From the NCBI GenBank assembly GCA_039190745.1, contig JBCCXZ010000056.1, forward strand, positions 1 to 26,853: 26,853 nucleotides of DNA, given 5' to 3'. The DNA comes from Planctomycetota bacterium (lineage in GTDB: Bacteria > Planctomycetota > Planctomycetia > Pirellulales > Lacipirellulaceae). Shown in pieces: positions 2,805 through 24,405 of the stretch. Position 1 is the stretch's first letter. Each line of letters opens with the position of its first letter. A program made the position numbers and the translations under genes. Under the pieces are notes generated by a model. That model did no database searches and was not told the DNA's origin. It was given only the letters and a program-made list of their open reading frames with translations.

Positions 2805-3108
2805 CTGTCCGCGACACGCGACTTTAGCGAGTAGTTAAGTTGAAGGAATTACTCGCGCCCAGGGAAAGTAGACCTTTCCATCTGCTGGGGATTTTCCACC
2901 ATGCCCCGTACTTCTTCCGTGTTCTGCGTTCTTGAAACAAAAGCAGAGCAGGCTAGACTACGCCACGATTGGTCGTGAGTCGTTGGTGCAAGCACCGTGA
3001 ATTCGTTGGAGCGCTTTGAGAAGGCTATTGTCACGACGCAAGAGTATCGGGTTGCGTGAACCCAGTGCGTCTCTCGGTCGAAGAGTGAACTACACGAGGC
3101 CAGTTACT

Positions 3109-3951
3109 ATGGGAATTGACAAGAAGTCACTGCTCGCACGCGTGATCGAAGGATACGAGCGCGCAAAGAAACCTCTCGCTTACTCCGTGATGACTTTAGC
3201 GGTCGTCTTGGGCGCTTTTCCGCCGAACGTCTTGCCTGAAGGTGCCCGCACCGTTACCTACACCGCAGTGCTGCTTATTCTCTCGCTGATCCTCCTCGAA
3301 GTGCTTTTCGAGATCTACGAGCGTGTGGTAACAGAAGAGAAGCAGCTGAACCTTATCGACTCGAACGACTTGTATTCCGAGATTCTCGGCATTGTTAGCG
3401 ACAAGCGAACCGTGAACATCAAGTTTCTGGCTGTCGCTGGACGGGTAGGTTGGGTGAATGTCCTGAGTAAGCTCCTCGACAGGAATCACCCCGAGTCCCT
3501 ACCCGCGCGGCGCATCAGTTTCAAGGTTGAGGTTGCTCTCCTCGACCCCGAGTACTGCAGGGATAACGCCATCTTCGAGGAGTTTGACGTAGTCGAAAGA
3601 ACTGTAAAGAACATCAAACGCTTGCAAAAACAATTCGAAGCCCAGTCGTCGGATTCGGACGAGAGCTTCGAAATCACCCTGGCATACTACCGCCACATGC
3701 CTAATCTGCTTGGCTTTCTAGTGGACGACAACTACCTGTTCCTTACCCACAGCAATTGGGAGTTCTACGAGAAGCAGCCGATCTTGAAGGCCGGGGGATC
3801 CGATTACTTTGTATACAACCGGAGCGATGACTTTGGCGGCTCCGAGCTTATCCGAAGGTTCTCGGGTTGGTTCCAATTCATCGTGAGTAACGCTGCGAGT
3901 TCTACGCATTCCGAGCCAGCCGCTACGGAGCAGCGGCTGACTCGGAAGTAA
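3109..3951 (+). CDS. Hypothetical protein with two N-terminal TM helices and a soluble C-terminal domain (possibly PLD-like/DUF5919-like)
   Basis: 280-aa ORF from ATG 3109. Two hydrophobic stretches (LAYSVMTLAVVLGAF, VTYTAVLLILSLILLEVLF). Codon usage is more AT-rich than the flanking genes. The fold guess comes from the motif pattern LLDP...YYRHMPNLLGFLVDD and is inference. Confidence 0.75.
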   Translation: MGIDKKSLLARVIEGYERAKKPLAYSVMTLAVVLGAFPPNVLPEGARTVTYTAVLLILSLILLEVLFEIYERVVTEEKQLNLIDSNDLYSEILGIVSDKRTVNIKFLAVAGRVGWVNVLSKLLDRNHPESLPARRISFKVEVALLDPEYCRDNAIFEEFDVVERTVKNIKRLQKQFEAQSSDSDESFEITLAYYRHMPNLLGFLVDDNYLFLTHSNWEFYEKQPILKAGGSDYFVYNRSDDFGGSELIRRFSGWFQFIVSNAASSTHSEPAATEQRLTRK

Positions 3952-4022
3952 GGATGCTCGCCTCAGAGAATTGAAATATACGGCTCAGTTCAGTAGGACG
4001 CCCGGCTCTATCGCTATCGCCC

Positions 4023-5861
4023 TTACTTGATCTGCACCGTATAGGGCATCATCAACAGCGCGGGTTCCTGCAACAGCGTGCGGTGCAGGTGGGCCGCGTG
4101 GCTAAAGACGGTCTTCAGCTCCGGCGCCACGCCGCTGAGGGCGGCCATGACGTGCGCCTCGCGCTCCGCGTCGAGGTCGGCCTTGAAGATCGCCTCGAAC
4201 GGGTTCTCCGGCTTGGGCAGCACCTTCAGCTGGGCCTTCTCGTCGGCGTCGATGCCGGCGAGCTGCTTCGCCAGATTGAGGGCGTCCTTCAGCGAGCCGA
4301 GCTCGTCGACCAGGCCGAGGCGCTTGGCGACGCGGCCGGTGTAGACCTGCCCGCCGGCGTGTTTCTCGAGCTCTTCGAGCTCCATGCCGCGGCCCTCGGC
4401 GGCCTTGCTGGTGAACTGCAGGTAGATGTCCTTGAGGAACTTCTCGAAGACCTTCTTCTCCGAGTCGGAGAACTTCTCGGTGGCGGAGAAGATGCCGCTG
4501 TTCGCGCCGCGGCTGATCGTCTCGGTGTTCATGCCGATCTTGTCGTACAGCCCGCCCATGGCGATCTTGCCGCCCACGACGCCGATCGAGCCGGTGATCG
4601 TGCCGGGCTCGGCCATGATCTTGTCGGCCCCCATGGCGATGTAGTAGCCGCCGCTGCCGGCGACGTCGCCCATGCTCGCGACGATCGGCTTGTCGATAGC
4701 CTGGGTGGCCCGCCAGATCATGTCGCTCGCGAGCGCCGAGCCGCCGGGGCTGTTGATGCGGAGGACGATCGCCTTCACGGCCTCGTCTGCTGCGGCCTCC
4801 TGGAGGGCTTTGACGATCGTGTCGGAGCCCATCACCTCGCCTGCGAACGGGTCGCTCTGGCTCTTGCCGCTCATGATTGGTCCGACGGCGTAAACCAACG
4901 CGACCTTCGGCCCCTTGGCTCCACGGCCGCCGCGTGAGGCGCCCAAGATGCTCTGGAACAGCTTCATCATGCCCATTGGGCCGGAGAAGTCGGTGTCGAC
5001 CTTCTTCTTACCGTAGTTGACGACATAGACGAGCTTGTCGGCGGCGTACTCTTCTTTGAGCTGGGCGCGGAACACGTCCGGGTAAACCAGCCGGTCGACC
5101 AATCCGAGTTCCTTAGCGGCGATCGCGGTAAGCAGGCCCTGGTCGATGGCGGCCTTCGCCTCGTCGACCTTCATCTCACGGTCTTTGGCGATCGTGGTGA
5201 TCATCTGGTCGTAGAGGTCGTCGATCAGGGCGGTCATGTTCTTCTTGACGCCCTCGCTCATGCTGTCGCGGGTGTAGGGCTCGCCGGCGCCCTTGGCCTC
5301 GCCGACGTGCATGATGTCGGCCTCGAGGCCGAGCTTGGCGAGCATGTCTTTGTAGTAGGCAAACTCGCCGTGCAGGCCGGGGATCAGAATCATGCCGGAC
5401 TCGGGCATGACGACCTCGTCGCACGCGACCGCGAGCAGGTACTGCGGGGCCATCGCCATCTCGGCTACGCCGTATACCTTCTTGCCGGCTGACTGGGCGC
5501 GGGCCACAGCCTCACGCAGTTCGTTGAGCTTGCCCCAGCCGATGGCCGAGGGTTTGATCTCGAGGATGATGCCGGCGATGTTCTTGTCGCCTGCTGCCTT
5601 GTCGATGCGGGCGACCTGCTTGCGGAGGTCGACGCCTAGGTCGCCGAAGAGCGACATTTGGCCGGGCGACTCGGGCATCGCGCCCTCGATCGAAATGTGG
5701 GCCAGCCGCACCTTCTTGGGCTCGGCTTTCTTCTCCTCGGCGGCCGCGTCGGACCTGGCCGGCTTCTTGGAGGACGAGTCCTTGGCGTAGGCGATGGCGG
5801 CGGCTTGCAGCGCCATCACCATACTGAGTGCTATCGCGGTGAGTTTGATCGGCGTACGCAT
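4023..5861 (-). CDS. sppA: Signal peptide peptidase SppA, long (tandem S49 domain) form
   Basis: Start MRTPIKL at 5861, preceded by SD-like GAGGGAGA. Motifs GEAKGAGEPY (catalytic Lys region), VLRINSPGGSALASD, SMGDVAGSGGYY, TITGSIGV and GLVDELG. Confidence 0.93.
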   Translation of the reverse strand: MRTPIKLTAIALSMVMALQAAAIAYAKDSSSKKPARSDAAAEEKKAEPKKVRLAHISIEGAMPESPGQMSLFGDLGVDLRKQVARIDKAAGDKNIAGIILEIKPSAIGWGKLNELREAVARAQSAGKKVYGVAEMAMAPQYLLAVACDEVVMPESGMILIPGLHGEFAYYKDMLAKLGLEADIMHVGEAKGAGEPYTRDSMSEGVKKNMTALIDDLYDQMITTIAKDREMKVDEAKAAIDQGLLTAIAAKELGLVDRLVYPDVFRAQLKEEYAADKLVYVVNYGKKKVDTDFSGPMGMMKLFQSILGASRGGRGAKGPKVALVYAVGPIMSGKSQSDPFAGEVMGSDTIVKALQEAAADEAVKAIVLRINSPGGSALASDMIWRATQAIDKPIVASMGDVAGSGGYYIAMGADKIMAEPGTITGSIGVVGGKIAMGGLYDKIGMNTETISRGANSGIFSATEKFSDSEKKVFEKFLKDIYLQFTSKAAEGRGMELEELEKHAGGQVYTGRVAKRLGLVDELGSLKDALNLAKQLAGIDADEKAQLKVLPKPENPFEAIFKADLDAEREAHVMAALSGVAPELKTVFSHAAHLHRTLLQEPALLMMPYTVQIK

Positions 5862-9574: not shown

Positions 9575-9581
9575 CGGAGCA

Positions 9582-10613
9582 GTGGCGTCTGAGACAGTTG
9601 CAAGCGAGGTTGTTGCAAAGAATCAACCATCAAGTTCAAGGACGAGGATCAAACAATTGGCAAACAATCTCTTGGATAACAACCCGCTGTGGGTGGTTGA
9701 TGTAGGCGCGAGCGGCGGCGTAGACCCCAGGTGGGGGGAGTTCACAGGATCGTATCGGGGCGTTTTGTTTGAGCCGGACCCGAGGGAGTATGATTTACTC
9801 AAGGCAAGAAGCCAGGATAATCTGATTGTTTTGAACGCCGCGTTGTCCGACTCGGCCGGTACAGTAGACTTCTACCTTTGTCAGAAACAGGAGGTGTCGT
9901 CCGCCTTCCTCCCGAACTTTGAGTTCTTGCGCAAGTTCCCTGACGCCGATCGCTTCAATGTCACACAAACCATACAGGTGCAAACGGATACTCTCGACAA
10001 CCAGCTCAAGGCTAGCGGCATCGAAGAGATTGATTTCGTCAAAGTCGACACCCAGGGGTGCGAGCTGCCTATTTTGAGGGGCGGTTCTGAGTGCCTCGGC
10101 ACCGTCGTCGGCCTAGAGCTAGAAGTTGAGTTTGCAGAGCTCTACACAAACCAACCGTTGTTTAGTGAACTGGATAGCTACGTGAGAGCGAAGGGGTTCT
10201 CGCTGTTCGATCTCAAGAGGTACTTTTGGAAACGGCTAGACGGGGCCGAGGCGGAGGATCAGAAGGGCCAGTTAGTATTTGGCGACGCCCTTTACTTCAG
10301 GGGCCCAGAACAGGTGCTCCAGATGAATGGCCTTACCCAAAACAAGGTATTGCGTGCTCTCAGTGTGTACCTAGTTTACGGGTATGTAGACCTTGCGAGA
10401 GCGTTGTTGAACGCAGCCGCGGACGGCGGGGCGATGTCGGGTGACGCCGCTCGTTCTGCCGAAGCGGTCATCGCAGACTGCGCCAAGAAAATGCGCGTGC
10501 CGAAGTTCAAGGGCAGAAAGAAGATAAGTCGAGCGCTGGAAGGGGTGTTAAGGGTTCTCGGCGGCCGCGGCGGCTGGCATGTCGGAACGGACCGATCGCT
10601 TGGGAATCCATAA
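9582..10613 (+). CDS. FkbM family SAM-dependent methyltransferase
   Basis: Motifs VVDVGASGG, FEPD, DFVKVDTQGCELPILRG, LELEVEFAELYTNQPLF and GDALY. Start uncertain (GTG 9582, or TTG 9657 after GAGGA). Lower GC than its neighbours. Confidence 0.9.
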   Translation: MASETVASEVVAKNQPSSSRTRIKQLANNLLDNNPLWVVDVGASGGVDPRWGEFTGSYRGVLFEPDPREYDLLKARSQDNLIVLNAALSDSAGTVDFYLCQKQEVSSAFLPNFEFLRKFPDADRFNVTQTIQVQTDTLDNQLKASGIEEIDFVKVDTQGCELPILRGGSECLGTVVGLELEVEFAELYTNQPLFSELDSYVRAKGFSLFDLKRYFWKRLDGAEAEDQKGQLVFGDALYFRGPEQVLQMNGLTQNKVLRALSVYLVYGYVDLARALLNAAADGGAMSGDAARSAEAVIADCAKKMRVPKFKGRKKISRALEGVLRVLGGRGGWHVGTDRSLGNP

Positions 10614-10766
10614 GCCGTCAGCGGCGAGTCAAGCGAGAGGCGGGACTCAACCATAGCCTTCGCTTGTCGCTACTAGACACCGGCAGTTGTACGGTGTCGT
10701 CAACGATTACGACAGAGCATCTCCCTGACAACAGACGCCGCTACCCGCGTTTCATGGCTACTTCGC

Positions 10767-10979
10767 TTAATCTTGTGCCTGCTCTCGAATCCTCTTTAAC
10801 CACATCAAGATCGTGGCAACGGCTATTGCCGCAAGCAACAATGCCGTCTGCCATGCGCCTTGTCCCAGTTCCATTCCGCGGACTGCCACCAGAAAGAAGC
10901 TGAACAGTGGGATCAATGTAAGGACAAGAACGGATAGCTCGGAGGCGCGCATGGTTACAACACGTTCGAGGTAGTTCAT
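10767..10979 (-). CDS. Putative small membrane protein (70 aa, two TM helices)
   Basis: MNYLERVV... contains two hydrophobic segments (LSVLVLTLIPLFSFFLVAV, TALLLAAIAVATILMWL) followed by a basic tail (KRIR). Confidence 0.55.
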   Translation of the reverse strand: MNYLERVVTMRASELSVLVLTLIPLFSFFLVAVRGMELGQGAWQTALLLAAIAVATILMWLKRIREQAQD

Positions 10980-11112
10980 TTCGAGACGCTTCAACGACTC
11001 AACGAGGCGCCATGCCCATGCTCGCGTAGGCATGTCGATAGGGAAGTGCGGCTACATACGCCTGCCCACACAGAAGCGGGCACGGTACATAGGCGAGCAG
11101 CCTCATTTAGCG

Positions 11113-11847
11113 TTACGTATCCTTTCGGTTCCGGCACGAGATCGCAAAAACTCCCAGCGCCGCGAGCGTCCACGTACCCGGTTCTGGGATCGGCAGTTGG
11201 AAAACTACGTTGTCGATCGCAATGCCGCCGACGTCGTCGTTGGTAATGACGACACCGGCGATGTCTACCGTATCTAGTTCCCGCACGAAGCCGAAAAAGC
11301 CGTTGGAGGGGAGGGGGACGGTGACGCTGTCGATGAGTGTGCCGTTCCTGCGGTAGAAATCAAAGGTGGCCCCGCCCGTCGAGGGGTCTACACCGAGAAT
11401 TTCGAGCCCGAACTCGGCGGTGTCGTCGTCAAACAAGATCGCGAGCGAGCCTTCGCCGTTGGCCGAAGCGAGCGGCCAGGCGTTCGGGCCAAGCCCTGCG
11501 ATTGCGACGATCCCGCCCACGTTGCCTACGGTGATGTTCTCTCCGACCGCCCCGGGCACCAAGGCCAACGGGTCGTTGGGCGAGCCGGACACCGTGTCGA
11601 AGTCTCCAGAGACGCCGATGGCTTGACCGGCGAAGTGCTCAGCGAAAGAGGCGCCATCGAGGTCGACTACGCCTTCAGTAGAGACACCCGGGAAAGGCGC
11701 CGAGGGCAGGCTGTTGAAATCGACAAGCCCCGTGGCCGTCAGGGAACCGTAAGGAGTCAGGTTCACGGGCAGTGCATGGCCCGACGGCGCCCACGCCGCT
11801 ACGAGAGACCAAGCGAGGAAGAGAAGGCGAAGGTAACGGATCGGCAT
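11113..11847 (-). CDS. PEP-CTERM sorting domain-containing exported protein
   Basis: Signal peptide MPIRYLRLLFLAWSLVAAWAPSGHA, acidic Gly-rich Lys-poor body, C-terminal IPEPGTWTLAALGVFAISCRNRKDT. Confidence 0.92.
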   Translation of the reverse strand: MPIRYLRLLFLAWSLVAAWAPSGHALPVNLTPYGSLTATGLVDFNSLPSAPFPGVSTEGVVDLDGASFAEHFAGQAIGVSGDFDTVSGSPNDPLALVPGAVGENITVGNVGGIVAIAGLGPNAWPLASANGEGSLAILFDDDTAEFGLEILGVDPSTGGATFDFYRRNGTLIDSVTVPLPSNGFFGFVRELDTVDIAGVVITNDDVGGIAIDNVVFQLPIPEPGTWTLAALGVFAISCRNRKDT

Positions 11848-12041
11848 GGAGTCACTCCCGGGTTGCAGTGCTAAGTTGTGGGTGAAAGCAGCGAGAATAG
11901 GATGGGGCGAGCCCCGTTCCCCGACGTGTATGCTCCGGAAGGTGACAACTTTCCGATGCACGGGGCGGTGTTGAAGATAGCCGCTCGATGGCCCGGGGCA
12001 AGAAGAATACCAGTGAGCTTGTGCGAGTTAGTTGCCGGGCG

Positions 12042-12235
12042 TCACGCGCAGTTTCGATTCCGGCGCGAAATCGCAAATAATGCCGCCACGGCGAGCGGCA
12101 GCCCCACCGATTCTGGGACGACAATCGCCGCCACGTCGATTGGTTTGAGAAAGCCCAAACCGACCACGCCGGACGTGCGGAACGGTAAGTGATGAGAAAC
12201 GGTAAGTGATGAGAGGAGAGCAGCGGCCGGTCCAT
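12042..12235 (-). pseudogene. Orphan PEP-CTERM C-terminal fragment
   Basis: Encodes VPESVGLPLAVAALFAISRRNRNCA*, the same length as the tail of the 11113 gene. Gap-free identity counted by hand is 53/77 nt (12042-12118 vs 11113-11189). No signal peptide or body lies upstream. Confidence 0.7.
12181..12214. repeat. Perfect 17-bp tandem duplication (AACGGTAAGTGATGAGA x2)
   Basis: Copies at 12181-12197 and 12198-12214. Confidence 0.95.
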
Positions 12236-12334
12236 GCGATAATCTGAAGTGCTGAGCCCGGACTGTAAGGCGGGCCGAATTCTGGAGCAAATAGAGCCCT
12301 ACTCAGAAGCCCAGGAACGGTGGCGGAGAGAACG

Positions 12335-12377
12335 AGCGGCCGATGGACGCAGACGGACGCAGACGGACGCAGACAAG
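12335..12377 (+). repeat. Left arm of inverted-repeat element, containing (GGACGCAGAC)x3
   Basis: AGCGGCCGAT-GGACGCAGAC x3-AAG, an inverted match to 13013-13045. Confidence 0.85.
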
Positions 12378-12474
12378 TCCCTCGGGTGCGCTGACTGTCG
12401 GCCGGGAACGGTATTGCTCCAGGACCGGAGGCATTGCGGCTAGGCCAGGCGCCGCTGCCGCAGTGCGGGTCTGC

Positions 12475-12960
12475 TCATTCACTCGGTCGCAATGCGGAAA
12501 TGACGCGCTGCAGTTCTTCGCTCGTGCCAAGGTGGTTCTGGTGGCGGAAGTACTTCAGTAACCGCCGTCGTAATTCATCGTTGATCGTGACGTGCCTGCC
12601 GTTGTCTTCCATCAGGCGGATCAGCCAATCGACCCCGCCGTATGTGATGAGGTCGTACGGCTCGATATCGACGATCATCTCGATGATCGCCTGGCCGATA
12701 TTGCCGTACTCGGCCATCAGAGCTTCGAAGCCGGGGTGATAATCGTCTCCGGTGACGAAGAAACGGTCGCCGATCCAACTCCCGACGAGCGGGTGGGGTT
12801 CGACGCCCGTGTAGTACGTGTTGTTCTGCAAGAGCAAGTACGAAAGGGCTCGCGAACCTATGTTGCGTCCTAGCGCATAGTTCTTGATGTCCGAGCCGGT
12901 GGGGTCGATGCAGAAGTACTGCCGTTTCGAATCATTCACGTAGAAATAGTAAGTGCCCAT
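12475..12960 (-). CDS. Hypothetical protein (161 aa), cargo between inverted repeats
   Basis: MGTYYFYVNDSKRQYF... The N-terminus and the GSWIGDR...GDD segment resemble a pattern I recall from small phage/accessory proteins (MGQYY..VN..K.EY); this was not verified by search. Confidence 0.8.
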   Translation of the reverse strand: MGTYYFYVNDSKRQYFCIDPTGSDIKNYALGRNIGSRALSYLLLQNNTYYTGVEPHPLVGSWIGDRFFVTGDDYHPGFEALMAEYGNIGQAIIEMIVDIEPYDLITYGGVDWLIRLMEDNGRHVTINDELRRRLLKYFRHQNHLGTSEELQRVISALRPSE

Positions 12961-13012
12961 GCGACCCAGCAACCAGCTTGGCGGCTGCCTCTAGGATTTC
13001 GGCTAGCGAGCG

Positions 13013-14264: not shown

Positions 14265-14278
14265 TTGATTCAGAAAAC

Positions 14279-14346
14279 AGGAACACGAATCTGCACTAAT
14301 TCTCGCTAATCCGGATTAGTGAAGATTAGCTTTGATTAGTGTTCCT
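14279..14346. repeat. Imperfect ~68-bp palindrome built from CTAAT/GAAT subrepeats
   Basis: Left arm GGAACACGAATCTGCACTAATTCTCGCTAATCC versus reverse complement of the right arm GGAACACTAATCAAAGCTAATCTTCACTAATCC. The arms are equal in length, have no spacer and are centred on CCGG. Confidence 0.9.
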
Positions 14347-14361
14347 AATCTCTTCCTCTTC

Positions 14362-15307: not shown

Positions 15308-17202
15308 CGGCCGCGGGCCCCCTGCATGAACTCGTTGGGGGCGCCGCTGTCGTCGACCCAAATCGACCACAGCGGGTGGAAGTCCTGCACGTTGTTGTAG
15401 AACCCGCGGACGTGCGGCTTCACCAGGTTCTTGCTGACGTAGTAGTAGAGCGGCAAGATCGGCAGGTCGCGCATGAGGATCTGCTCCGCCTCGCGGAAGA
15501 TCGCCATGCGCTTGTCGGGGTCGCTCTCGCGGGCGGCGGCGGCGATCAGCTCGTCGTACCGCGGGTCGCCCCAGCCGGTGTTGTTCTGCTCGCCGCCGGT
15601 CACAAACATGTCGAGGAATGTGTTGGGGTCGGCGTAGTCTCCCACCCATCCCTTGCGGCAGACGTCGTAGCGCGCTTGGCGTTGGCTGGAGAGATAGGTG
15701 CCCCACTCTTCGTTGCGGGTGCGGACGGAGATCCCCAACTCGCGTTGCCACTGCTTGCGGATCAGCTCGGCGATCGACTGGTGCGCCTCGTGGGTGTTGT
15801 AGAGGATGTCGATCCGCGGGAAGCCCTTGCCCTCGGGGAAGCCTGCTTCGGCGAGCAAGCGTCGGGCTTCGTCGGGGTCTTGCGGCAGAGCCAGTTGCGG
15901 GACGTAGCCTTCGATGCCTGGAGGTACGAGACTGAGTGCCGGCTGCTCGCCCGCGGCGAGGATCTTGGTGGCGATCTCCTCGCGGTTGACCGCCATGTGC
16001 AACGCCTGACGAACCCGGAGGTCGTCGAGCGGCGCCTTAGTTGTGTTGAGCAGGTAGTAGTAACTGCTGAGCCACGTGCTGGGGTTGATGTCGTCCCGGG
16101 GCGGCTCGGCGTGGATCAGCTCGCGGAGCGCCGTGGGAGGGGCTTCGGTGATCCAGTCGACGTTGCCCGTCATGTAGAGGTTCATCGCCGTCGTGATGCT
16201 GTCGACAGCCAACGCGTCGATCACGTTGAGCTTGACCTCGTCCCGGTTCCAGTAGGTCTCGCTCTTTGCCAGGCGGATGCGGTCGCGGATGCGGCGGAGC
16301 TGCATCGTGAACGGGCCGTTGCCGACGAGGTTTTCCGGGTACGTCCACGCGGGCGAGCCGTGCGTCTCGACGCAGGTTTGGTTCACCGGGTAGAGCGGGT
16401 AGAACCCCATCAGGCTCAGGAAGAACGGCGTCGGGCTCTCGAGCGTGATCCGCAGCGTACGGTCGTCGACCGCCTCGACGCCCACATCGCGGAAGTCAAA
16501 GAGCACCTGCCGACACCAGCGGAGGCCGTCGTGCGGCGTCGCCCCGGCGTCGGCGTCGTCTTTGCTGACGAAACGGTTCTCTTGCCCGTCGATCTCGACA
16601 ACGAACACGCGGTCGGTCGAGTCCCGCTCGTCATCAGGCAATGGCTCGCCGGTTTGGTTTTCCAGACGGACGAACGTGCCGTGCAGCAGCTCGCCGCGGA
16701 GCGAGTTCACCGCGTCGGGCGGCAGGTTCAGCTCCACCTCGACGGGGTCGCCGGGTTCCACGCCGCTGCCGCCGCGGTTGTACTTGCGGCCGTTCTTGAT
16801 GTACCAAGCCTGGTAGGCGTACTCGGCGGCGGTCCGCGGGCCGAGGAACCGCCGGAGCGAGTAGCGGAAGTCGTCCGCCGTGACCAGCGTGCCGTCCGAC
16901 CACCGGGCCGTGTCACGCAAGTAGAATGTATAAACCACCCCGTCGTCCGAGAGGTCCCACCGCTCGGCCACGCCGGGGATAGGCTCCAGCGTCTGCGGGT
17001 GCAACCGGGTGAGGCCCTCGAACAGGGCGTTGATCATGCGGTTTTCCGGCGAGCCGGTGACGATCGCCGGGTCGAGGCTCTTGACCTCGCTCTCGTTGCA
17101 GAACGTAAAATCCGCGGGGGGCAGCCCGCCGCCGAGCGTGGAGAACACCGCCGAGAAGAGCAGGGCGGCCAGCACAACCCACGGGAAGAGCGCTCGTGCC
17201 AT
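15304..17202 (-). CDS. oppA: Oligopeptide ABC transporter substrate-binding protein (SBP family 5)
   Basis: SLDPA, LFEGL, PGVAERW...YTFYLR..ARWSDG, GNGPF, RVRQAL and WVGDYADPNTFL. Start ATG 17202 with an N-terminal hydrophobic anchor. Confidence 0.95.
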   Translation of the reverse strand: MARALFPWVVLAALLFSAVFSTLGGGLPPADFTFCNESEVKSLDPAIVTGSPENRMINALFEGLTRLHPQTLEPIPGVAERWDLSDDGVVYTFYLRDTARWSDGTLVTADDFRYSLRRFLGPRTAAEYAYQAWYIKNGRKYNRGGSGVEPGDPVEVELNLPPDAVNSLRGELLHGTFVRLENQTGEPLPDDERDSTDRVFVVEIDGQENRFVSKDDADAGATPHDGLRWCRQVLFDFRDVGVEAVDDRTLRITLESPTPFFLSLMGFYPLYPVNQTCVETHGSPAWTYPENLVGNGPFTMQLRRIRDRIRLAKSETYWNRDEVKLNVIDALAVDSITTAMNLYMTGNVDWITEAPPTALRELIHAEPPRDDINPSTWLSSYYYLLNTTKAPLDDLRVRQALHMAVNREEIATKILAAGEQPALSLVPPGIEGYVPQLALPQDPDEARRLLAEAGFPEGKGFPRIDILYNTHEAHQSIAELIRKQWQRELGISVRTRNEEWGTYLSSQRQARYDVCRKGWVGDYADPNTFLDMFVTGGEQNNTGWGDPRYDELIAAAARESDPDKRMAIFREAEQILMRDLPILPLYYYVSKNLVKPHVRGFYNNVQDFHPLWSIWVDDSGAPNEFMQGARGR

Positions 17203-17318
17203 GGTGTGCCGTTGAGGGTTCCGTCCTAAGTGGGGCTGTGAAGCCACAGTTTACCGGTTGCCCGCACCGCGGCGAAAGACCACCGCTAGCAGGCTAGGGG
17301 CGGAGCCCACACTTCTTT

Positions 17319-17558
17319 GGAGTCGATGGAAGAAGAAGGGGATCGGGAGATGGCTGGGGATGGGGGGGAAGAAAACAAAGGGGCCCCCGCGAGGTATTCT
17401 CTCGGAATCGATGGCAGGCCGCTGCGGCAGGAATTTGATTTCCTCCCGCCGAACCCGCCAGTAGCTTGAGTCTGTTCAGCGAAAGGAGCTAACCCACGCG
17501 GAAGCGATCCCCCGTATCCCCACGCATCCCCATATCTCCTTTCACCTTCTTCACTCCC
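17319..17558. repeat. Degenerate inverted-repeat element with GGGGAT/GGAGAT subrepeats
   Basis: Left (about 17319-17370) GGAGTCGATGGAAGAAGAAGGGGATCGGGAGATGGCTGGGGATGGGGGGGAA. Reverse complement of right (about 17507-17558) GGAGTGAAGAAGGTGAAAGGAGATATGGGGATGCGTGGGGATACGGGGGAT. The spacer is ~135 bp. Confidence 0.7.
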
Positions 17559-17573
17559 TGTTGCGCTAGACCC

Positions 17574-18068
17574 GTGTTCGAGCACCAACGCCACAAACCG
17601 CCGCGAGAACTCGCCCGCCCCCGCGGGCTGGTGCTGGCGTGCGCCCCCATGCGGAGCAACGTGAACCTCTCCCGCATCGCCCGGGCGGCCGGGTGCTGCG
17701 GGGTGGGGCGGATCATCTGCACCGGGACGGCGAAGCTCGACCGCAAGATCGCCCGCGACGGGGCCGACACCGTCCAGATCGAAACCCGCCGCTCGCTGCC
17801 GCCGGTGCTGGAGAAGCTCCGCGGCGAGGGCTTCCGGTTGGTGGGGCTGGAGCAGACATCCGGCTCAACCGACATCCACCGCTACGAGTTCCCGCACCAG
17901 ACGGCCCTGGTTATCGGCAACGAGCGGACCGGCCTCACGCCCGAGGTGCTCGAACTGCTCGACGACGTGGTGGAGATCCCCGTCTGGGGCATGCCCTATA
18001 GTTACAACGCGGCAACCGCTACTGTGATGGCGTTGTACGAGTACTGCCGCCAATGGCCGGATGGTTAG
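17574..18068 (+). CDS. TrmH/SpoU family RNA 2'-O-methyltransferase
   Basis: NLSRIARAAGCCG, VGLEQ, LVIGNERTGL and EIPVWGMPYSYNAATA (SPOUT motifs 1-3). Confidence 0.93.
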   Translation: MFEHQRHKPPRELARPRGLVLACAPMRSNVNLSRIARAAGCCGVGRIICTGTAKLDRKIARDGADTVQIETRRSLPPVLEKLRGEGFRLVGLEQTSGSTDIHRYEFPHQTALVIGNERTGLTPEVLELLDDVVEIPVWGMPYSYNAATATVMALYEYCRQWPDG

Positions 18069-18095
18069 TGGCCCCAAAACACCGCGCACACCGTC

Positions 18096-19709
18096 ATGGC
18101 CGGAACGCTTGTTTATGACCTGCTGATTATCCTCAGCGCCGGGCTGCTGGCCGGGTTGGTTTGCCGGCGCGTGCAAGTCTCTGTGCTCGTGGGCTACCTG
18201 GTGGTGGGGGCCCTGCTGGGCGCGGGCGTGCTAGGCTGGGTCCGCGACGAGCACCACGAGATCGAGCACCTCGCCGAGGCGGGCGTGTTCCTGCTTCTGT
18301 TCTCCATCGGCTTGGAGTTCTCGCTAGAAGAACTACTGCGCCTGGGCCGCAACCTGCTCGTGGGCGGCAGCGTGCAGATGCTGCTGGTCGCTGTGCCGGT
18401 GGCGGGGCTGATGACTGCCACCGGCGCTGCGTGGCAGCCGGCGCTGCTGGTCGCCGCGGCGACGGCGTTCAGCTCCACGGTGCTGGTGTTCAAAGCACTC
18501 GCCGAGAGCGGCCACTCCGGCCGGCCGCACGGGCGGCGGGCGATCGGCATCCTGCTGTTCCAAGACGCGGCGCTCGTGCCGCTTCTCTTGCTCGTGCCGC
18601 TGCTAACGCAAGGCGAAGAAACCGCAGGCCTAAGCGACCTCCTCCAACTGATGCTCATTTCCGCCGGGTTCGTCGCCGCGGTCGTGCTCTTGCGGCGGCT
18701 GCTGGCCCAGTGGCTGATCCCGATGATGGCCGGCTACCGCAGCCCCGATTTGGTCGTGCTGTTCGCGCTGGTGGTGCTCGGCGGCGTCACGATGGCCGCG
18801 TTCCAGGTCGGCCTGCCGCCGGCGATCGGCGCCTTCGCCGCGGGCCTGTCGTTCAGTGGCAACCGCTGGTCGCACCAGATCGACGCCCTGGTATTGCCGT
18901 TCCGCGAGGCGTTCGCCGCGGTGTTCTTTGTGAGCCTCGGATTGTTCTTTGACCCGCAAACGATCTTCGACGCCCCGCTGCTGATGCTCGCCTGCTTTGT
19001 CGGCTTGGTCGCGCTCAAAGCGGTCGCCGCGACGGCGGCGCTGCGGCTCACGGGGCTCGACAGCCGGTCGTCGCTCGGCATGGGCATCGGCCTGGCTCAT
19101 GTCGGCGAGTTCGCGTTCGTGCTGCTGCTGATCGGCGGCGAGGCGGGCGTCGTCCCTCGGGAAGACGTTCAGCGGATCATCACGCTGGCGATCGGCTCGC
19201 TGCTGCTCACCCCCTTCCTGATGCGGCTGGGCCTGCGGTGGGTGACCGAGAGCGGCGACGAGGCCGCGGCGGTGGCCGCCGTCCGCCACAACGGCGACGG
19301 CCGGCAGCAGGCCGTGGTCGTCGGCGCCGGCCCGGTCGGCCGGCAGCTGTCTTCCCAGCTGGAGACCACCGGCCACGACGTCTGCCTGATCGACCTTAGC
19401 CCGATCAACCTGCACCCGTTCGCCACGGAGGGCTTCCGCACCGTGGCCGGCGACGGCGGCGACGAGGAGACGCTCCGCAGCGCCCACGCCGACGAGGCGA
19501 TCCTCGCGGTGCTGTGCGTGCCCGACGACGCCGCGGCCGAGCGCACACTGCGAGCGCTACGCGAGATCAACCGCGAGTGCTTCGTGCTGGTCCGCTGCCG
19601 CTACCACGCGAACGAGCCGACGCTACGCAAGCACGGCGCCGACCGGGTGATCAGCGAGGAGACCGTCGCGACCGGGGCGCTGATGAAGATCCTTGCGGAG
19701 ATGAGCTAA
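18096..19709 (+). CDS. CPA2 cation:proton antiporter (KefC-like) with C-terminal TrkA-N/RCK domain
   Basis: Multiple TM helices with LAEAGVFLLLFSIGLEFS, FSST, GILLFQD, GAFAAG and HVGEFAFV. C-terminal GAGPVG Rossmann motif. Confidence 0.94.
   Translation: MAGTLVYDLLIILSAGLLAGLVCRRVQVSVLVGYLVVGALLGAGVLGWVRDEHHEIEHLAEAGVFLLLFSIGLEFSLEELLRLGRNLLVGGSVQMLLVAVPVAGLMTATGAAWQPALLVAAATAFSSTVLVFKALAESGHSGRPHGRRAIGILLFQDAALVPLLLLVPLLTQGEETAGLSDLLQLMLISAGFVAAVVLLRRLLAQWLIPMMAGYRSPDLVVLFALVVLGGVTMAAFQVGLPPAIGAFAAGLSFSGNRWSHQIDALVLPFREAFAAVFFVSLGLFFDPQTIFDAPLLMLACFVGLVALKAVAATAALRLTGLDSRSSLGMGIGLAHVGEFAFVLLLIGGEAGVVPREDVQRIITLAIGSLLLTPFLMRLGLRWVTESGDEAAAVAAVRHNGDGRQQAVVVGAGPVGRQLSSQLETTGHDVCLIDLSPINLHPFATEGFRTVAGDGGDEETLRSAHADEAILAVLCVPDDAAAERTLRALREINRECFVLVRCRYHANEPTLRKHGADRVISEETVATGALMKILAEMS
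19651..19708 (+). repeat. Direct repeat copy 1 (3' end of the antiporter gene)
   Basis: 53/58 nt identical to 20584-20641. Encodes SEETVATGALMKILAEMS*. Confidence 0.97.
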
Positions 19710-20458
19710 GCCGGAGCCCTTCGGCGTTGCGTCATCGCCAATACTGCACTTGCCGCGATCAATGCTGTGGCTGGCTCGGGCACCAATGAGAAAGAAGTCA
19801 CCTGATATTCAATCGGGTGGAGCCACATTTGATATTCGCCGATCTCGATTGCGTAGAAAGTGATGTTTGTCTCATCCTTTGCGACGTTCATATCTATCTG
19901 CACAACAGATCGATTCAGAATGATCTCGGTCGTGCTGACTAGGTAGTCAACCGTACCGCCAAAGTTGATTAGTCCCGTTGACATCCCATCTCTGTTCTCT
20001 TGGTGAGCCGGGTCTTCGGTATCGATTCCCCAATACCACATCGACGGCCCGATCTCGGGCCAGCCGCGGTAGTTGGTTGTAAACAGAAATTTATACTCTG
20101 TGCTTTGCTCTTCTCCCGAGCCACCATCAAGGTCGTAGTCTGTCGTGGAAATCTGGCCGAACAACCCGCCGCTCCGTTCGAAGACGTAGTATTGAGATGC
20201 CAGCTCCAGCTTCTCAATTCCTACGTAGGAGAATTCGGCGTCGTCTTGCGTTAGTACCCCGCTGTCTTCCTCGTCGAGCCACAGCGACATACGGATCCAT
20301 GGTGCAGGCACAAATTCAGTCGTATTCCATTCTCCGGAACTAAAGTCGGAGGTTTGGCCGCCTCGCAAGACGGCTTCGAGGTCAATCCGGAGAGTACCAG
20401 CTTGGACGATCTGAGTGTGGCAAGCGATGAGAAACACAGCTAGGAGAGTGCATCGCAT
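19706..20458 (-). CDS. PEP-CTERM sorting domain-containing exported protein
   Basis: Signal peptide MRCTLLAVFLIACHTQIVQA, C-terminal VPEPATALIAASAVLAMTQRRRAPA, lower-GC codon usage. Confidence 0.92.
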   Translation of the reverse strand: MRCTLLAVFLIACHTQIVQAGTLRIDLEAVLRGGQTSDFSSGEWNTTEFVPAPWIRMSLWLDEEDSGVLTQDDAEFSYVGIEKLELASQYYVFERSGGLFGQISTTDYDLDGGSGEEQSTEYKFLFTTNYRGWPEIGPSMWYWGIDTEDPAHQENRDGMSTGLINFGGTVDYLVSTTEIILNRSVVQIDMNVAKDETNITFYAIEIGEYQMWLHPIEYQVTSFSLVPEPATALIAASAVLAMTQRRRAPA

Positions 20459-20583
20459 GAGCTTGTTCCTACAGCGATTGCGAGGGTCTTGGCGGGGCGA
20501 TCGGAACTCTATCTCGATGCGGCGGCCCTGTCATCGTCGGTTGCCCGTCAGTGGGCCCGTTTCCGTTAATCGGCAAGCGTTGC

Positions 20584-20642
20584 TCAGCGAGGAGACCGTC
20601 GCGACCGAGGCGCTGATGCGCATCCTCGCGGAGATGAGCTAG
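20584..20642 (+). repeat. Direct repeat copy 2: orphan duplicate of the antiporter 3' end
   Basis: Encodes SEETVATEALMRILAEMS*, 933 bp downstream of copy 1. Confidence 0.97.
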
Positions 20643-21406
20643 CGGACATGCCTACGGATTGCGAAGCACGACATCATTATGAGTGCGACTGCTGCTGGTT
20701 CAGGGATCACTATGATTGAAGTCAGACGATAGGTGACTCCGTAGTATGCGTAGTCCCCACCCAGTCGGCCGCTCGTGCCAACAATCAGTGTCCCGCCCGC
20801 TGCGGCACCAACTGGTGGGGAACCGTGCGCAGGGTCGAAGTTCTCTAGTGCGGGGCCGATTCCGTCACCGGTCAGCCGCAACTCCGCAGTTGCCAAAGTC
20901 GGGATACCAAGATCGTAGTAGTCGTTTACACTGTCAGGGTGCGGAAAGGTAGTCCCGGCCCAGGGCTTTTTGCCGTAGGTCCGCCAGCCCGAGACCAAAC
21001 TGAAGTCGGTCTCAAACAATGGCTGCGTAGTCGTCCAGGTGATGCGATGTACGCTCACCGCAAATTCGGGCGATATCCCGAGCGGCTCCAGGATCGGCTC
21101 GTCGGGTGCGGCAGATTCGCGCCAGAAGAGCAGCGAAACATCGTCTGTCTCCGAACGCCCGAGCGAATTCTCCAAGAAAAAGTTGCTGACCTCAGTCGTG
21201 AATCGTTCGATGAGCCCCGGTGATGGACGCCCCGGACCGAGCTGGGTGGCGCCGAGTTCGAACCCGCCCTGAATCAAGCGGGGCGGGTTCATATAGACCG
21301 GGTGGGCATCGGCTAGCTCGCCTTCGAACAGCACGGTAACCTGCCCAGCCAGCACGGGCGCGGCGGGGGTGAGCAACGTAGCTACCAGTGAAAGTCGCAG
21401 GATCAT
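20639..21406 (-). CDS. PEP-CTERM sorting domain-containing exported protein
   Basis: Signal peptide MILRLSLVATLLTPAAPVLA, C-terminal IPEPAAVALIMMSCFAIRRHVR. ATGA overlap with the upstream paralog. Confidence 0.92.
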   Translation of the reverse strand: MILRLSLVATLLTPAAPVLAGQVTVLFEGELADAHPVYMNPPRLIQGGFELGATQLGPGRPSPGLIERFTTEVSNFFLENSLGRSETDDVSLLFWRESAAPDEPILEPLGISPEFAVSVHRITWTTTQPLFETDFSLVSGWRTYGKKPWAGTTFPHPDSVNDYYDLGIPTLATAELRLTGDGIGPALENFDPAHGSPPVGAAAGGTLIVGTSGRLGGDYAYYGVTYRLTSIIVIPEPAAVALIMMSCFAIRRHVR

Positions 21407-22308
21407 CGGCCGACTCCTTCGGCACGGTTTCGGCTTTTAGTCCACGCCCGGGAACGGATCGGCGCCAAGCAGGCCATCAGCAAGAGTGCTGCCGTCGTCG
21501 GTTCCGGCGTGACGGTCAGCAGGGTCAGGTCGTAAACGATGCGGTGCCGGTATGAGAATCCGTCGTCGTCGTAGAACGACTCGCCAGGGAGGTCTCCGGC
21601 GTAGAAGATAAACTCAGCGACAGAGGCCAGGTCGAGATCGAACGGAGCCAGCGAAGTATCGAAGTCTTCAGGTTCGGGTTCGTCATCTTTGTGGACGAGC
21701 CTGATCCCTGCGAAGGGATTCGTCACGTCCGGCGCGGCCGCGGGCAGACTATGTGTCGGGTACTCAATAGGCACGAATGGTACGTAGGCACCGGGTTCTA
21801 TGTCCGGTTCTTCGAAACCATTCGGTCCAAACTGACCGTCCCGGTCGATGTCGTCGGCGACTCCGTCGCCATCGAATACGCCGTCGCGGCTATCCGATCG
21901 TTCCGGCCTCTTGATTTCCCCGAAACTCACGGAGTAGCGGATGCCGTCGGGAAAGACTGGGGCACCGGGGAAACGGCTTGGGTTTCCGGGGGAAGGCCCT
22001 GGCAGGTAAACCTCTTCGTAGTCTTGGTATGTACTAACTACGAAGCCCGGGCCGGCCTGATCAAGCCCGTGAATGCTTGAGAATGAGATGCCCGACGTGG
22101 TTGTGCGGGCATTGATTGAATAGGTGCCCTCGAACAAGTTCACATCTTCCGTCTCAAAGCTGTACCAGCCGCTGATCGACGGTGCCGGGGCGACGAACAC
22201 AGACGTGTACTCTCGCAGCTCCGCCTCGAAGAGCACGGTGACTTTGCCCGCGAAGGCCACCGGGGAGGGTAGCATAAGGATCGTCAGCAGCCAGAGTCGC
22301 GATAGCAT
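21403..22308 (-). CDS. PEP-CTERM sorting domain-containing exported protein
   Basis: ATG 22308 gives signal peptide MLSRLWLLTILMLPSPVAFA. C-terminal TPEPTTAALLLMACLAPIRSR..., with an Asp-rich body. Confidence 0.9.
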   Translation of the reverse strand: MLSRLWLLTILMLPSPVAFAGKVTVLFEAELREYTSVFVAPAPSISGWYSFETEDVNLFEGTYSINARTTTSGISFSSIHGLDQAGPGFVVSTYQDYEEVYLPGPSPGNPSRFPGAPVFPDGIRYSVSFGEIKRPERSDSRDGVFDGDGVADDIDRDGQFGPNGFEEPDIEPGAYVPFVPIEYPTHSLPAAAPDVTNPFAGIRLVHKDDEPEPEDFDTSLAPFDLDLASVAEFIFYAGDLPGESFYDDDGFSYRHRIVYDLTLLTVTPEPTTAALLLMACLAPIRSRAWTKSRNRAEGVGR

Positions 22309-22400
22309 GAGTTGGTGTCCCGAGTGAAAGAGTCTTTTTAGCCGAAGTAACGAACGCTCTCTTGGGCTTCTTGGAGTCGAGGGAATCTCTTCCCCACTCG

Positions 22401-23462
22401 TTACCAGTTCATCCCGATCCGCGTAGTCGATCCGTCGAAACTCACGTTGCCAAGGTAGTTGCTGTCCCACGCCTGCGCCTCAAAGCCGGTCTGGAAGACC
22501 CATTCGCACCTCTTGAGGCGATAGACGTACTCGAGGCCGAGGAAGGTCTCCCGGATATCGAGGTTGAGATCGCCCCGGGTGCGGCCAGCGCGGAGGGGCT
22601 CGGTCCACTCGCCGGTGAGGTAAGCCCACCGCCCGCGCGTTAGCAGCGACCAACGGCTCCACGGCTTCTCGAACAGGGTGTGCCTGCCTTCTGCGAAGAA
22701 GCCGACACCGAACGCCGAGTCGGTCTCGTGGTGATCTAACGGGTTGGTATCGAACTCGAGACTCGCCCCCGTGAGGCTGGCGCCGAGCTCTACGTCGCCG
22801 CGCCTGAAACGGAAGCGGCGGTAGAAGTCGATGTCCCAACGGAACGCGTCGATGGTCAGCGGGGCCGGGTCGGCGACCGTGTCTGATGCGACGGAGTACT
22901 CGCCGTCGTGGCTCCAGATCCGGCTGCGGATACCGGCTCCGCTTGCCGATTCCCAGCCGAAGTAGACTCTCGCGCCGGAGCCGTCTTCTTCGTTCGTGAT
23001 TCCCCAGTCCGAGTTGCTGTAGCTCGGGTCGAGAGCCGTGAGGTCCACGCCGGCATACCAGTAGCTCTGGTAACGCACCTGCCTGCAGGCAATGCAACCG
23101 CACTGCTTATTGTGAGAGGCGAGTTGCAGGCACTGGTCGGCTGGCTCAATAGCACCGGCGAGTTCAACCACGGGGATGTCGGTGGCCAAGATCGCAGCCT
23201 GCTCTTTGTCAGGCTTGGCTTCGTCCTCGTCCGAGGGCGTTTCCTTTTCCGCCGCAGGCTCCGCAGGTGAAGCATCACGCTCCTGAGTGGTCTCGACCAT
23301 GGTCGCCCCGAGCGTGAGTTCGGAACTTTCGTCCTGCGGCTCCAATTCGGCCATGGTCGCTCCGAACCGGTACTCCGGCTCTTCCTTCGTGGGCTCTGTC
23401 TCCCCGAGGCATGGTTGTTCCAATGAGCAAAGAAGCACCACAAGGGCGAGACAGGTGCGCAT
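22401..23462 (-). CDS. Putative outer-membrane beta-barrel protein
   Basis: Signal peptide, acidic low-complexity linker, Cys cluster (CGCIAC), then alternating amphipathic strands (YWYAGVDL, GARVYFGWE, FLGLEYVY) and a terminal aromatic residue (GMNW). Confidence 0.75.
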   Translation of the reverse strand: MRTCLALVVLLCSLEQPCLGETEPTKEEPEYRFGATMAELEPQDESSELTLGATMVETTQERDASPAEPAAEKETPSDEDEAKPDKEQAAILATDIPVVELAGAIEPADQCLQLASHNKQCGCIACRQVRYQSYWYAGVDLTALDPSYSNSDWGITNEEDGSGARVYFGWESASGAGIRSRIWSHDGEYSVASDTVADPAPLTIDAFRWDIDFYRRFRFRRGDVELGASLTGASLEFDTNPLDHHETDSAFGVGFFAEGRHTLFEKPWSRWSLLTRGRWAYLTGEWTEPLRAGRTRGDLNLDIRETFLGLEYVYRLKRCEWVFQTGFEAQAWDSNYLGNVSFDGSTTRIGMNW

Positions 23463-23592
23463 CGATTTTCCCCAACCGGTTCAAGGCATGCGGACGCCTT
23501 GGTTTCGCGCGCCCGCGCGGGGGCTTCTAACAGAAGGGCTAGCGGGCGGCCACACCGATTGGGACCGCTAGCAGCAAGAGAGGTGCAGCAGC

Positions 23593-24177
23593 CTACGTTC
23601 GATCCCGCCGGAGGCGATCAAGCTTCGAGGCGTCGCTCGGGGTGTACTGCGCCATGCGATCGAGCAACTTGCTTGGAGACTCTTCCACAATGAGTGCTTC
23701 GCGGTTCTCTGCAGAGAGAAAACCCTCCGTTACGCCGTGGTCCATCATCGCGAGGAGATGGTCGAAGTAGTGGCGGGCGTTCAATAAGGCACACGGGGCC
23801 TGGATGATCCCCAGCTGCACCCACGTGGCCGCCTCGAACAGCTCTTCGAATGTGCCGAGCCCGCCCGGCAGGGCGATCACCCCTGCGGAGAGCTCCGCCA
23901 TCATCGCCTTCCGCTCGTGCATCGATCGGACGATGTGCAGTTCGGTCAGCCCTTCGTGTGCCAGCTCCTTCTCTTGCATGAAGTCCGGCAGCACGCCGAT
24001 CACTTCGCCGCCGGCCGCGAGTGCCGCGTCGGCCACCACGCCCATTAGGCCTACCCGGGCCCCGCCGTAGACCAGGCCGATTCCTCGTTCAGCCATGGCT
24101 TGGCCGAGGGACGCCGCCGCTTCGGCGTATGCCGGATCGGCCCCGGGGCTCGAGCCGCAGAAGACGCAGTAACGCAT
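23593..24177 (-). CDS. LOG family nucleotide phosphoribohydrolase (TIGR00730-like)
   Basis: CVFCGSS, LVYGGARVGLMG, MHERK and PGGLGTFEE. Confidence 0.96.
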   Translation of the reverse strand: MRYCVFCGSSPGADPAYAEAAASLGQAMAERGIGLVYGGARVGLMGVVADAALAAGGEVIGVLPDFMQEKELAHEGLTELHIVRSMHERKAMMAELSAGVIALPGGLGTFEELFEAATWVQLGIIQAPCALLNARHYFDHLLAMMDHGVTEGFLSAENREALIVEESPSKLLDRMAQYTPSDASKLDRLRRDRT

Positions 24178-24405
24178 GACAGCCTCGGTTGCCTGCCGGA
24201 GAGGTAGGAAGAAGGGCGGTGCGGAAGCATAACCCTGGGATAGCCTGCGCGCCGAGCGGCGGGCGTGAGAAGCCCTCCGCCCACCCGCTTCCAGCTAGCG
24301 GCCGGCCGGCTACAATGGGGCGTTTTGCACTAGCGTAGCGCCGGCTCCCGGGGGATTGCCGTTTCCCACGGCCCTAGTCGGCGGACTCTGTCGGGGAAGT
24401 ATCAC

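What the first reader, a model, noticed from the sequence alone, without database searches (positions are those of the whole stretch)
19651..20642. PEP-CTERM gene in a 933-bp unit bounded by a duplicated antiporter 3' end (att-like signature, no integrase)
Seen: the last 58 bp of the antiporter gene recur 933 bp later (53/58 identical), and exactly one lower-GC PEP-CTERM gene plus its upstream region lies between the copies. In both copies the terminal CTA is the TAG stop of a convergent PEP-CTERM gene (19706 and 20639), so two different surface genes end at the same nucleotide of the repeat. The five differences are all frame-preserving substitutions (CTT/CTC synonymous, AAG/CGC K/R, GGG/GAG). 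Established: integrative elements that target a gene's 3' end carry a replacement end. Inference: single-gene PEP-CTERM cassettes are added at this site by recombination with a donor carrying another allele of the antiporter tail, growing a variable surface-protein array that could also excise as a 933-bp circle.
Basis: partly seen in the sequence, partly recalled or inferred. Interest (0 to 1): 0.85.

Follow-up and report, generated by a model that had tools for sequence, protein, structure and literature searches.

The report
Surface gene inserted behind duplicated gene-tail
A surface-protein-type gene sits between two copies of the last 58 bases of an ion-transporter gene, where the sister species has one copy; it likely arrived from a related bacterium by ordinary recombination, a known, integrase-free kind of gene insertion.

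Summary
The repeat is real: 53/58 identical, 933 bp apart, two copies in the genome, bridged by independently assembled contigs. The only congener (G001) has one tail and one different PEP-CTERM-like gene, a distant homologue of the 20639 gene, so the 19706 gene is the addition. The copies differ like two coding alleles (K/R, synonymous, TAA/TAG), not like a decayed local duplicate (P about 0.05 here; 0.009 and 0.001 at two similar sites). Best reading (0.7): a donor fragment [own antiporter tail + gene + upstream DNA] entered by one homologous crossover, pushing the old tail downstream. This fits the described class 'insertion with long target duplication', with non-restriction cargo. It is not a PEP-CTERM cassette system: 1 of 132 PEP-like genes lies between gene-tail repeats, the same scar at dnaA carries a NACHT gene, repeat lengths vary (58, about 85, 235, about 400 bp), there is no attC fold or nearby recombinase, and no excision joint was seen. 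The shared stop position is the genome's commonest convergent spacing. The scan noted this scar before in this and other genomes. Ordinary in kind; modest interest.

The parts
18096..19709 (+). CPA2 (KefB/KefC/YbaL-like) cation:proton antiporter with TrkA-N domain; host gene whose 3' end is duplicated
   Evidence: PF00999 E 1.5e-51, PF02254 E 1.2e-21; 93% identical orthologue in G001
19651..19709 (+). Repeat copy 1, the tail in use (..ALMKILAEMS, TAA); inferred donor-derived in its distal part
19706..20458 (-). Added gene: 250-aa PEP-CTERM-like protein of unknown function, low GC; absent from the G001 slot; no significant close relative in two protein collections
20459..20583 (-). 125-bp upstream region of the added gene, with a sigma70-like site at 20534-20506 (weak: 2 found vs 0.8 expected in 4.2 kb)
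20584..20642 (+). Repeat copy 2, displaced tail (..EALMRILAEMS, TAG); shares R and TAG with G001 and stays joined to the resident slot gene
20639..21406 (-). Resident slot gene, 255-aa PEP-CTERM-like; 24.5% identical over 277 aa to the single gene in the G001 slot
21403..22308 (-). Second resident slot gene, 301-aa PEP-CTERM-like paralogue (23% to the 20639 gene, 27% to the G001 gene); overlaps the next start by 4 nt; no tail scar between them
22401..23462 (-). Conserved right flank: secreted beta-barrel-like protein, present in G001 at the same place
   Evidence: PF13505 weak E 0.0028; DNA 82.7% to G001 from 22223 on

Best explanation
The 933-bp unit is an added gene between two copies of the antiporter's 3' end, and it likely came from a related planctomycete as a DNA piece carrying its own allele of that tail, which likely circularised and entered by one RecA-type crossover in the identical first 24 bases. 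Shown: anatomy, one-copy state in the congener, allele-like differences, absence of a recombinase gene on the contig. Inferred: the donor held this gene in the same slot; the crossover gave the antiporter a new last 12 codons (K, TAA) and pushed the old end (R, TAG), still joined to the resident PEP-CTERM gene, 933 bp downstream. The antiporter stays intact, which would let such insertions persist. The slot between the antiporter and the barrel gene likely also turns over by ordinary two-sided replacement. Cargo role (a sorted cell-surface protein) is inferred from the tail motif and an exosortase gene; its activity is unknown.
For: One tail and no homologue of the added gene in the G001 slot; both flanks syntenic at 83-89%. 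Copy 2 is linked to the homologue of G001's slot gene (E 9e-11 pairwise) and shares R and TAG with G001. Six differences change only 2 residues (neutral mean 4.2, P 0.045) and three fall in one codon, giving the commonest Lys and Arg codons (P 0.012). Same anatomy at dnaA (84 nt, 2 residues of 8 changes, P 0.009, TAG/TGA) and at a C6 membrane-protein gene (234 nt, P 0.001); G001 lacks both inserts. G001 has its own, longer displaced dnaA tail (316+83 nt) followed by a PEP-CTERM gene, i.e. two nested events at one locus. Variable repeat lengths fit homology, not a fixed att site. No tyrosine recombinase among 10 genomic matches lies on this contig, no resolvase-family match in the genome; recA, dprA and a ComEC-family gene are present. 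Experimental precedent: in E. coli, linear DNA with one-sided homology gave duplications of 109-950 bp by re-circularisation and single crossover in 56 of 60 clones (PMC3240628, passages and section 14).
Against: Only one congener exists among 119 family genomes searched; no conspecific empty site or other allele was found. Nucleotide polarity is weak: of 6 differing sites G001 sides with copy 2 at 3, copy 1 at 2, neither at 1 (9 vs 8 differences overall); at dnaA 13 vs 14 of 90; at C6 the functional copy is the closer one inside the repeat (46 vs 53) and the displaced copy only beyond it. The P values come from my own simple simulation on very few sites, and the clpB 5' repeat shows no coding constraint (P 0.63). 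That the added gene belongs to the slot family is only hinted (profile E 0.12, second non-member of 132; best non-member on the 10 residues before PEP; upstream DNA not alike). No donor was found. 58 bp at 91% is a short substrate for RecA (recalled). Circle versus a linear template-switch route cannot be told apart.
Confidence: 0.7

Rival explanations
1. Remnant of a site-specific integrative element that targeted the antiporter 3' end with a replacement tail (integrase lost or supplied in trans).
For: Replacement-tail anatomy; first 24 nt of the copies identical; 10 tyrosine-recombinase matches elsewhere in the genome; classic tRNA-end repeats exist at C4.
Against: No recombinase gene or fragment on the contig; the unit is one gene plus 125 bp; no other copy of the 58-mer; comparable scars differ in target and length; no hairpin (z -1.3 to +1.0).
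Confidence: 0.12
2. Break-repair insertion that copied the recipient's own 58 bases (true target duplication), with later divergence of the copies, copy 2 perhaps kept as a promoter or terminator element.
For: Matches the published class in size and identity (e.g. 59/64, 57/64 in Table 3 of PMC2853133); outgroup polarity is weak.
Against: A three-base K/R codon swap and stop-to-stop change are unlikely under neutral decay (P 0.012 and 0.045), and the excess of silent changes recurs at two other sites; no terminator-like site at copy 2.
Confidence: 0.12
3. Old local tandem duplication of tail plus PEP-CTERM gene, followed by divergence of the two genes.
For: Both genes stop at the same base; faint likeness at both protein ends.
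Against: Gene bodies are unalignable (only residues 216-247, 28%) while the non-coding copy 2 is 91% alike; upstream regions differ; GC differs (0.526 vs 0.600).
Confidence: 0.05
4. Assembly artefact joining two strain alleles.
For: Metagenome-assembled genome; best run may be its source.
Against: Separately assembled contigs span 17000-20190 and 20165-23192 with no differences at even depth 8.3; a second sample has a 263-nt contig across copy 2 with no differences.
Confidence: 0.01

Closest known systems
Insertion with long target duplication (Furuta, Abe and Kobayashi 2010, PMC2853133: passages and section 13 read; Nobusato 2000 seen only as a citation there)
   Same: Small insert, no mobility genes, imperfect direct repeats over 30 bp (their range 25-423 bp, e.g. 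59/64), one copy at the relative's site, repeats often spanning a start or stop so the target stays intact.
   Different: Cargo is a PEP-CTERM-like gene, not a restriction-modification unit, so their break-by-own-nuclease idea does not apply; here the copies look like donor and recipient alleles.
rhs C-terminal displacement (Jackson et al. 2009, PMC2935791: passages and first part of the discussion read); Vibrio T6SS effector-immunity arrays (PMC5361080: passages)
   Same: Incoming 3' end joined to low-GC cargo displaces the old 3' end downstream without deleting it; fragments of variable length; circle plus homologous crossover proposed; no integrase.
   Different: The anchor is a housekeeping gene whose new end is near-synonymous; the novelty is a convergent passenger gene, not a new toxin tip; one event here rather than long strings.
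Re-circularisation and single crossover of incoming DNA in E. coli (PMC3240628: passages and section 14 read)
   Same: Yields insert flanked by a partial duplication of the homology, of variable length, rather than the deletion typical of HFIR.
   Different: Laboratory plasmid with identical homology, duplications 109-950 bp; here a natural 58-bp, 91% case with inferred donor.
Minimal mobile elements of Neisseria (as defined in PMC3787668: passages read)
   Same: Variable genes between conserved flanking genes; G000 has three and G001 one different gene between the same flanks.
   Different: Plain two-sided replacement leaves no duplicated tail; shown within one species there, two species here.
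PEP-CTERM/exosortase sorting system (Haft et al. 2006, PMC1569441: passages read)
   Same: PEP motif, hydrophobic helix, basic cluster, N-terminal hydrophobic leader, no homology elsewhere, many per genome, exosortase present.
   Different: Tails fall below the Pfam model; nothing ties the family to this insertion route.

Membership tests
Insertion with long target duplication | Direct repeat longer than 30 bp flanking the insert | tested here: met
   58 bp, 53 identical
Insertion with long target duplication | Insert under 20 kb with no mobility genes | tested here: met
   875 bp between copies; no recombinase match on C56
Insertion with long target duplication | Repeat is not a dispersed multicopy element | tested here: met
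   2 copies in 3.89 Mb
Insertion with long target duplication | Related genome with one copy and no insert | tested here: met
   G001 has one tail, followed by a diverged homologue of the 20639 gene; different species, n=1
Insertion with long target duplication | Restriction-modification genes as cargo (screening criterion of the paper) | tested here: not met
   Cargo is a PEP-CTERM-like gene; so same structural class, not the RM subtype
Integrative element with replacement 3' end (att site) | Integrase in or next to the element | tested here: not met
Integrative element with replacement 3' end (att site) | Excised circle or empty site in the population | tested here: inconclusive
   No joint in contigs of 3 runs; raw reads not available
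Integron cassette | attC-type single-strand hairpin (feature recalled) | tested here: not met
   Both copies, both strands fold no better than shuffles, z -1.29 to +1.04
rhs/T6SS C-terminal displacement | Rhs or effector core with variable toxin tip | tested here: not met
   Host gene is a CPA2 antiporter; works like it, not a member
Minimal mobile element | Variable genes between conserved flanking genes | tested here: met
   G000 vs G001; n=2
Minimal mobile element | Exchange among strains by recombination in the flanks | tested here: inconclusive
   Last 39 nt of the antiporter differ from G001 at 9 sites (binomial P 0.018) but 45 of 512 internal windows reach that; no conspecific genomes
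PEP-CTERM protein (19706 gene) | PEP motif, hydrophobic helix, basic cluster, N-terminal leader | tested here: met
   Sequence and hydropathy only
PEP-CTERM protein (19706 gene) | Score to Pfam PF07589 | tested here: not met
   No hit at E<=0.01; weak NCBIfam NF038129 hit; Atlas nearest clusters PEP-CTERM at 0.91
PEP-CTERM protein (19706 gene) | Exosortase in the genome | tested here: met
   PF09721 E 1.3e-56 on C2
PEP-CTERM protein (19706 gene) | Processing and surface display | not testable with these tools
   No RNA run or proteomics

The most novel reading that the evidence does not exclude
In this planctomycete genus the 3' ends of housekeeping genes (antiporter, dnaA) act as reusable, enzyme-free landing pads: small circles of [donor tail + convergent gene] integrate serially, each swapping the host gene's last codons for a foreign allele and stacking surface and defence genes behind it; most 'long target duplications' would then be donor-recipient allele pairs rather than copied targets.
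Probability: 0.3. Interest if true: 0.6.

Novelty: new member of a known kind. Interest (0 to 1): 0.3.

Why it matters
How single accessory genes first enter a chromosome without any mobile element is still poorly resolved. This locus adds a clean case with non-restriction cargo, and the coding-type differences between the copies point to a donor allele, which is a testable prediction about the whole class. It also suggests one route by which the large, orphan-rich PEP-CTERM repertoires of planctomycetes grow, though only 1 of 132 such genes here lies between gene-tail repeats.

Tried and rejected
Metagenome pattern scan for the tail: 0 hits. Metagenome protein scan: 11 loci at 52-59% identity; the 10 with a stop in view showed no tail copy. 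Genome-collection pattern scan: 3 hits, one titled Lacipirellulaceae, two in other phyla taken as chance and not opened. 28 antiporter homologues: none with a tail copy in the DNA held (12-5994 nt downstream); apart from G001, the 3 'convergent PEP' flags were a gene one ORF further on; R is the commonest residue at the K/R column (9 of 28) but the column is variable, so I gave it no weight. Homologue searches for the added protein found only itself, plus one weak repeat-like hit (E 3e-4) not followed. Single-sequence fold pLDDT 33.7, so no fold search was run. No Rfam match at E<=0.1. No RNA holder listed. Upstream DNA of the added gene is not alike to that of the slot genes. A genome-wide test of the last 36 nt of 2034 core-like genes found 2 tail copies (dnaA, antiporter) against 0-2 at internal offsets: the scar is rare here, and this test alone shows no enrichment at stops. 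Literature searches listed no paper on PEP-CTERM genes inserted this way; the library lacks most subscription papers and I opened no supplements.

Full report
Setting. The window is a whole contig (C56) of a 3.89-Mb, 95% complete genome from a marine metagenome. A record titled Lacipirellulaceae holds the exact 22-nt start of the repeat (L077), so the organism is likely a planctomycete of that family.

Observation. 19651-19708 and 20584-20641 match at 53 of 58 bases; the next base makes the stop TAA in copy 1 and TAG in copy 2. There is no third copy in the genome. Between the copies lie a 250-aa minus-strand ORF (GC 0.526, GC3 0.60, against 0.695 and 0.905 for the antiporter) and 125 bp of upstream DNA. 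The host gene is a CPA2 antiporter with a TrkA-N domain. Independently assembled contigs bridge both copies with no differences at even depth, and a second sample bridges copy 2, so mis-assembly is unlikely. The three minus-strand genes end in PEP, a hydrophobic stretch and basic residues, the genome has an exosortase and at least 51 Pfam PEP-CTERM matches, but these three miss the Pfam model.

The relative. G001, the only congener among 119 family genomes searched, is syntenic on both sides and holds one tail and one 286-aa PEP-CTERM-like gene. That gene is a distant homologue of the 20639 and 21403 genes (24.5% and 27.4%, pairwise E 9e-11 and 3e-15) and matches the 19706 gene only over 30 C-terminal residues. 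The 20639 protein matched only these slot genes, plus one short hit on C32, in 120 family genomes. So the 20639/21403 pair is the resident family and the 19706 gene is the addition. No tail scar lies between the resident genes: one scarred event, not a series. More distant antiporter homologues have other neighbours and no tail copy.

The shared stop. Any convergent ORF entering the tail stops at 4 nt or 59 nt of overlap, or further, by frame. Four nt is the modal convergent spacing in this genome (16 of 338 pairs), and G001's gene uses the 59-nt frame. The shared stop is therefore not a recombination signature. One coincidence remains unexplained: the 59-nt stop is exactly the left edge of the repeat.

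Two alleles, not a decayed copy. Six differences in 57 in-frame bases change two residues (neutral simulation mean 4.2, P 0.045); three sit in one codon and turn the commonest Lys codon into the commonest Arg codon (P 0.012); the stop stays a stop. Copy 2 shares R and TAG with G001 and remains joined to the resident gene, but site counts are nearly even (3 for copy 2, 2 for copy 1, 1 neither). The gene bodies are unalignable while the non-coding copy is 91% alike, which rules against an old tandem duplication.

Other sites. A self-search listed 54 direct repeats within 20 kb; I inspected 15 and compared 4 with G001. dnaA has an 84-90-nt displaced tail around a 1050-aa NACHT gene (8 changes, 2 residues, TAG/TGA, P 0.009); G001 lacks that insert, ends dnaA like the displaced copy, and has its own displaced dnaA tail of about 400 nt further on, followed by a PEP-CTERM gene: two nested events at one locus. 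A C6 membrane-protein gene has a 235-nt repeat (P 0.001); inside it the functional copy is closer to G001 (46 vs 53 differences), beyond it the displaced copy matches G001 to the stop, a mosaic that one crossover would give but drift could also produce. 5'-end fragments occur at clpB (no coding constraint, P 0.63) and a peptidase M90 gene; G001 has one copy at each. A systematic test found 2 of 2034 core-like genes with a copy of the last 36 nt, against 0-2 at internal offsets. Of 132 PEP-like ORFs, 4 repeat pairs enclose any, and only this one is a host-gene tail.

Mechanism. No tyrosine recombinase match lies on this contig and no resolvase-family gene was found; recA, dprA and a ComEC-family gene are present. 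The repeat has no hairpin and no Rfam match. Repeat lengths of 58, about 85, 235 and about 400 nt fit homology-dependent entry. I infer that a donor fragment with its own tail, the gene and upstream DNA circularised and crossed in within the first 24 identical bases. In E. coli, 56 of 60 clones selected for one-sided integration carried such variable duplications, made by re-circularisation and single crossover, and only 4 were deletion-type HFIR (PMC3240628). The same two-step model was proposed for rhs tips (PMC2935791). The donor, the circle and the crossover are inferred; none was observed, and contigs of 3 runs showed no excision joint.

Classification. Size, identity, absence of mobility genes and a one-copy relative meet the structural criteria of insertion with long target duplication; the restriction-modification cargo criterion is not met (PMC2853133). 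An earlier scan note on this genome led me to that paper, and notes on several other genomes describe the same scar; these are unchecked and not counted as support. The added protein has no significant close relative and no usable model; its role as a sorted surface protein is inferred.

Verdict. Real, correctly described, partly over-read. New member of a known kind; interest 0.3.

Noticed in passing
G000:C23:10649-15553 (L048) and G001:C1 (L056:3338-7184): dnaA 3' end is a serial insertion site: G000 has an 84-90-nt displaced tail around a NACHT gene; G001 has an approx. 400-nt displaced tail with an internal deletion, followed by a convergent PEP-CTERM gene.
   Followed up: partly
window 19651-19653 and L031:16769-16827: The left edge of the repeat coincides with the TGA at which G001's slot gene stops after a 59-nt overlap with the antiporter; unexplained, possibly chance.
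   Followed up: partly
G000:C6:83552-85504 (L049): 235-nt duplicated 3' part of a membrane-protein gene around a 282-aa orphan ORF; G001 has the one-copy state.
   Followed up: partly
G000:C76:2456-3085 (L050) and G000:C20:2153-2894 (L051): 5'-end fragments of clpB (after a 5'-nucleotidase gene) and of a peptidase M90 gene (before a PemK/MazF-like toxin gene); G001 has single copies.
   Followed up: partly
window 2804-4024, 9578-12993, 23563-24281: Three more variable slots relative to G001: an orphan 311-aa ORF after serS; FkbM methyltransferase, a PEP-CTERM gene and a 165-aa orphan after the amidohydrolase; a LOG-family gene absent from G001 here. No tail repeats seen.
   Followed up: partly
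window 14272-14353: Palindromic REP-like repeat between oppC- and oppB-like genes, also found on other contigs (C25, C80) and in G001.
   Followed up: no
window 20639-22308: Slot-resident PEP-CTERM-like family keeps only its first ~55 residues and C-terminal end between two species whose antiporters are 93% identical, suggesting fast body replacement.
   Followed up: partly
G000:C4:101232-102689: 47-nt tRNA-end repeat around a 1.4-kb low-GC insert without an integrase in between.
   Followed up: no
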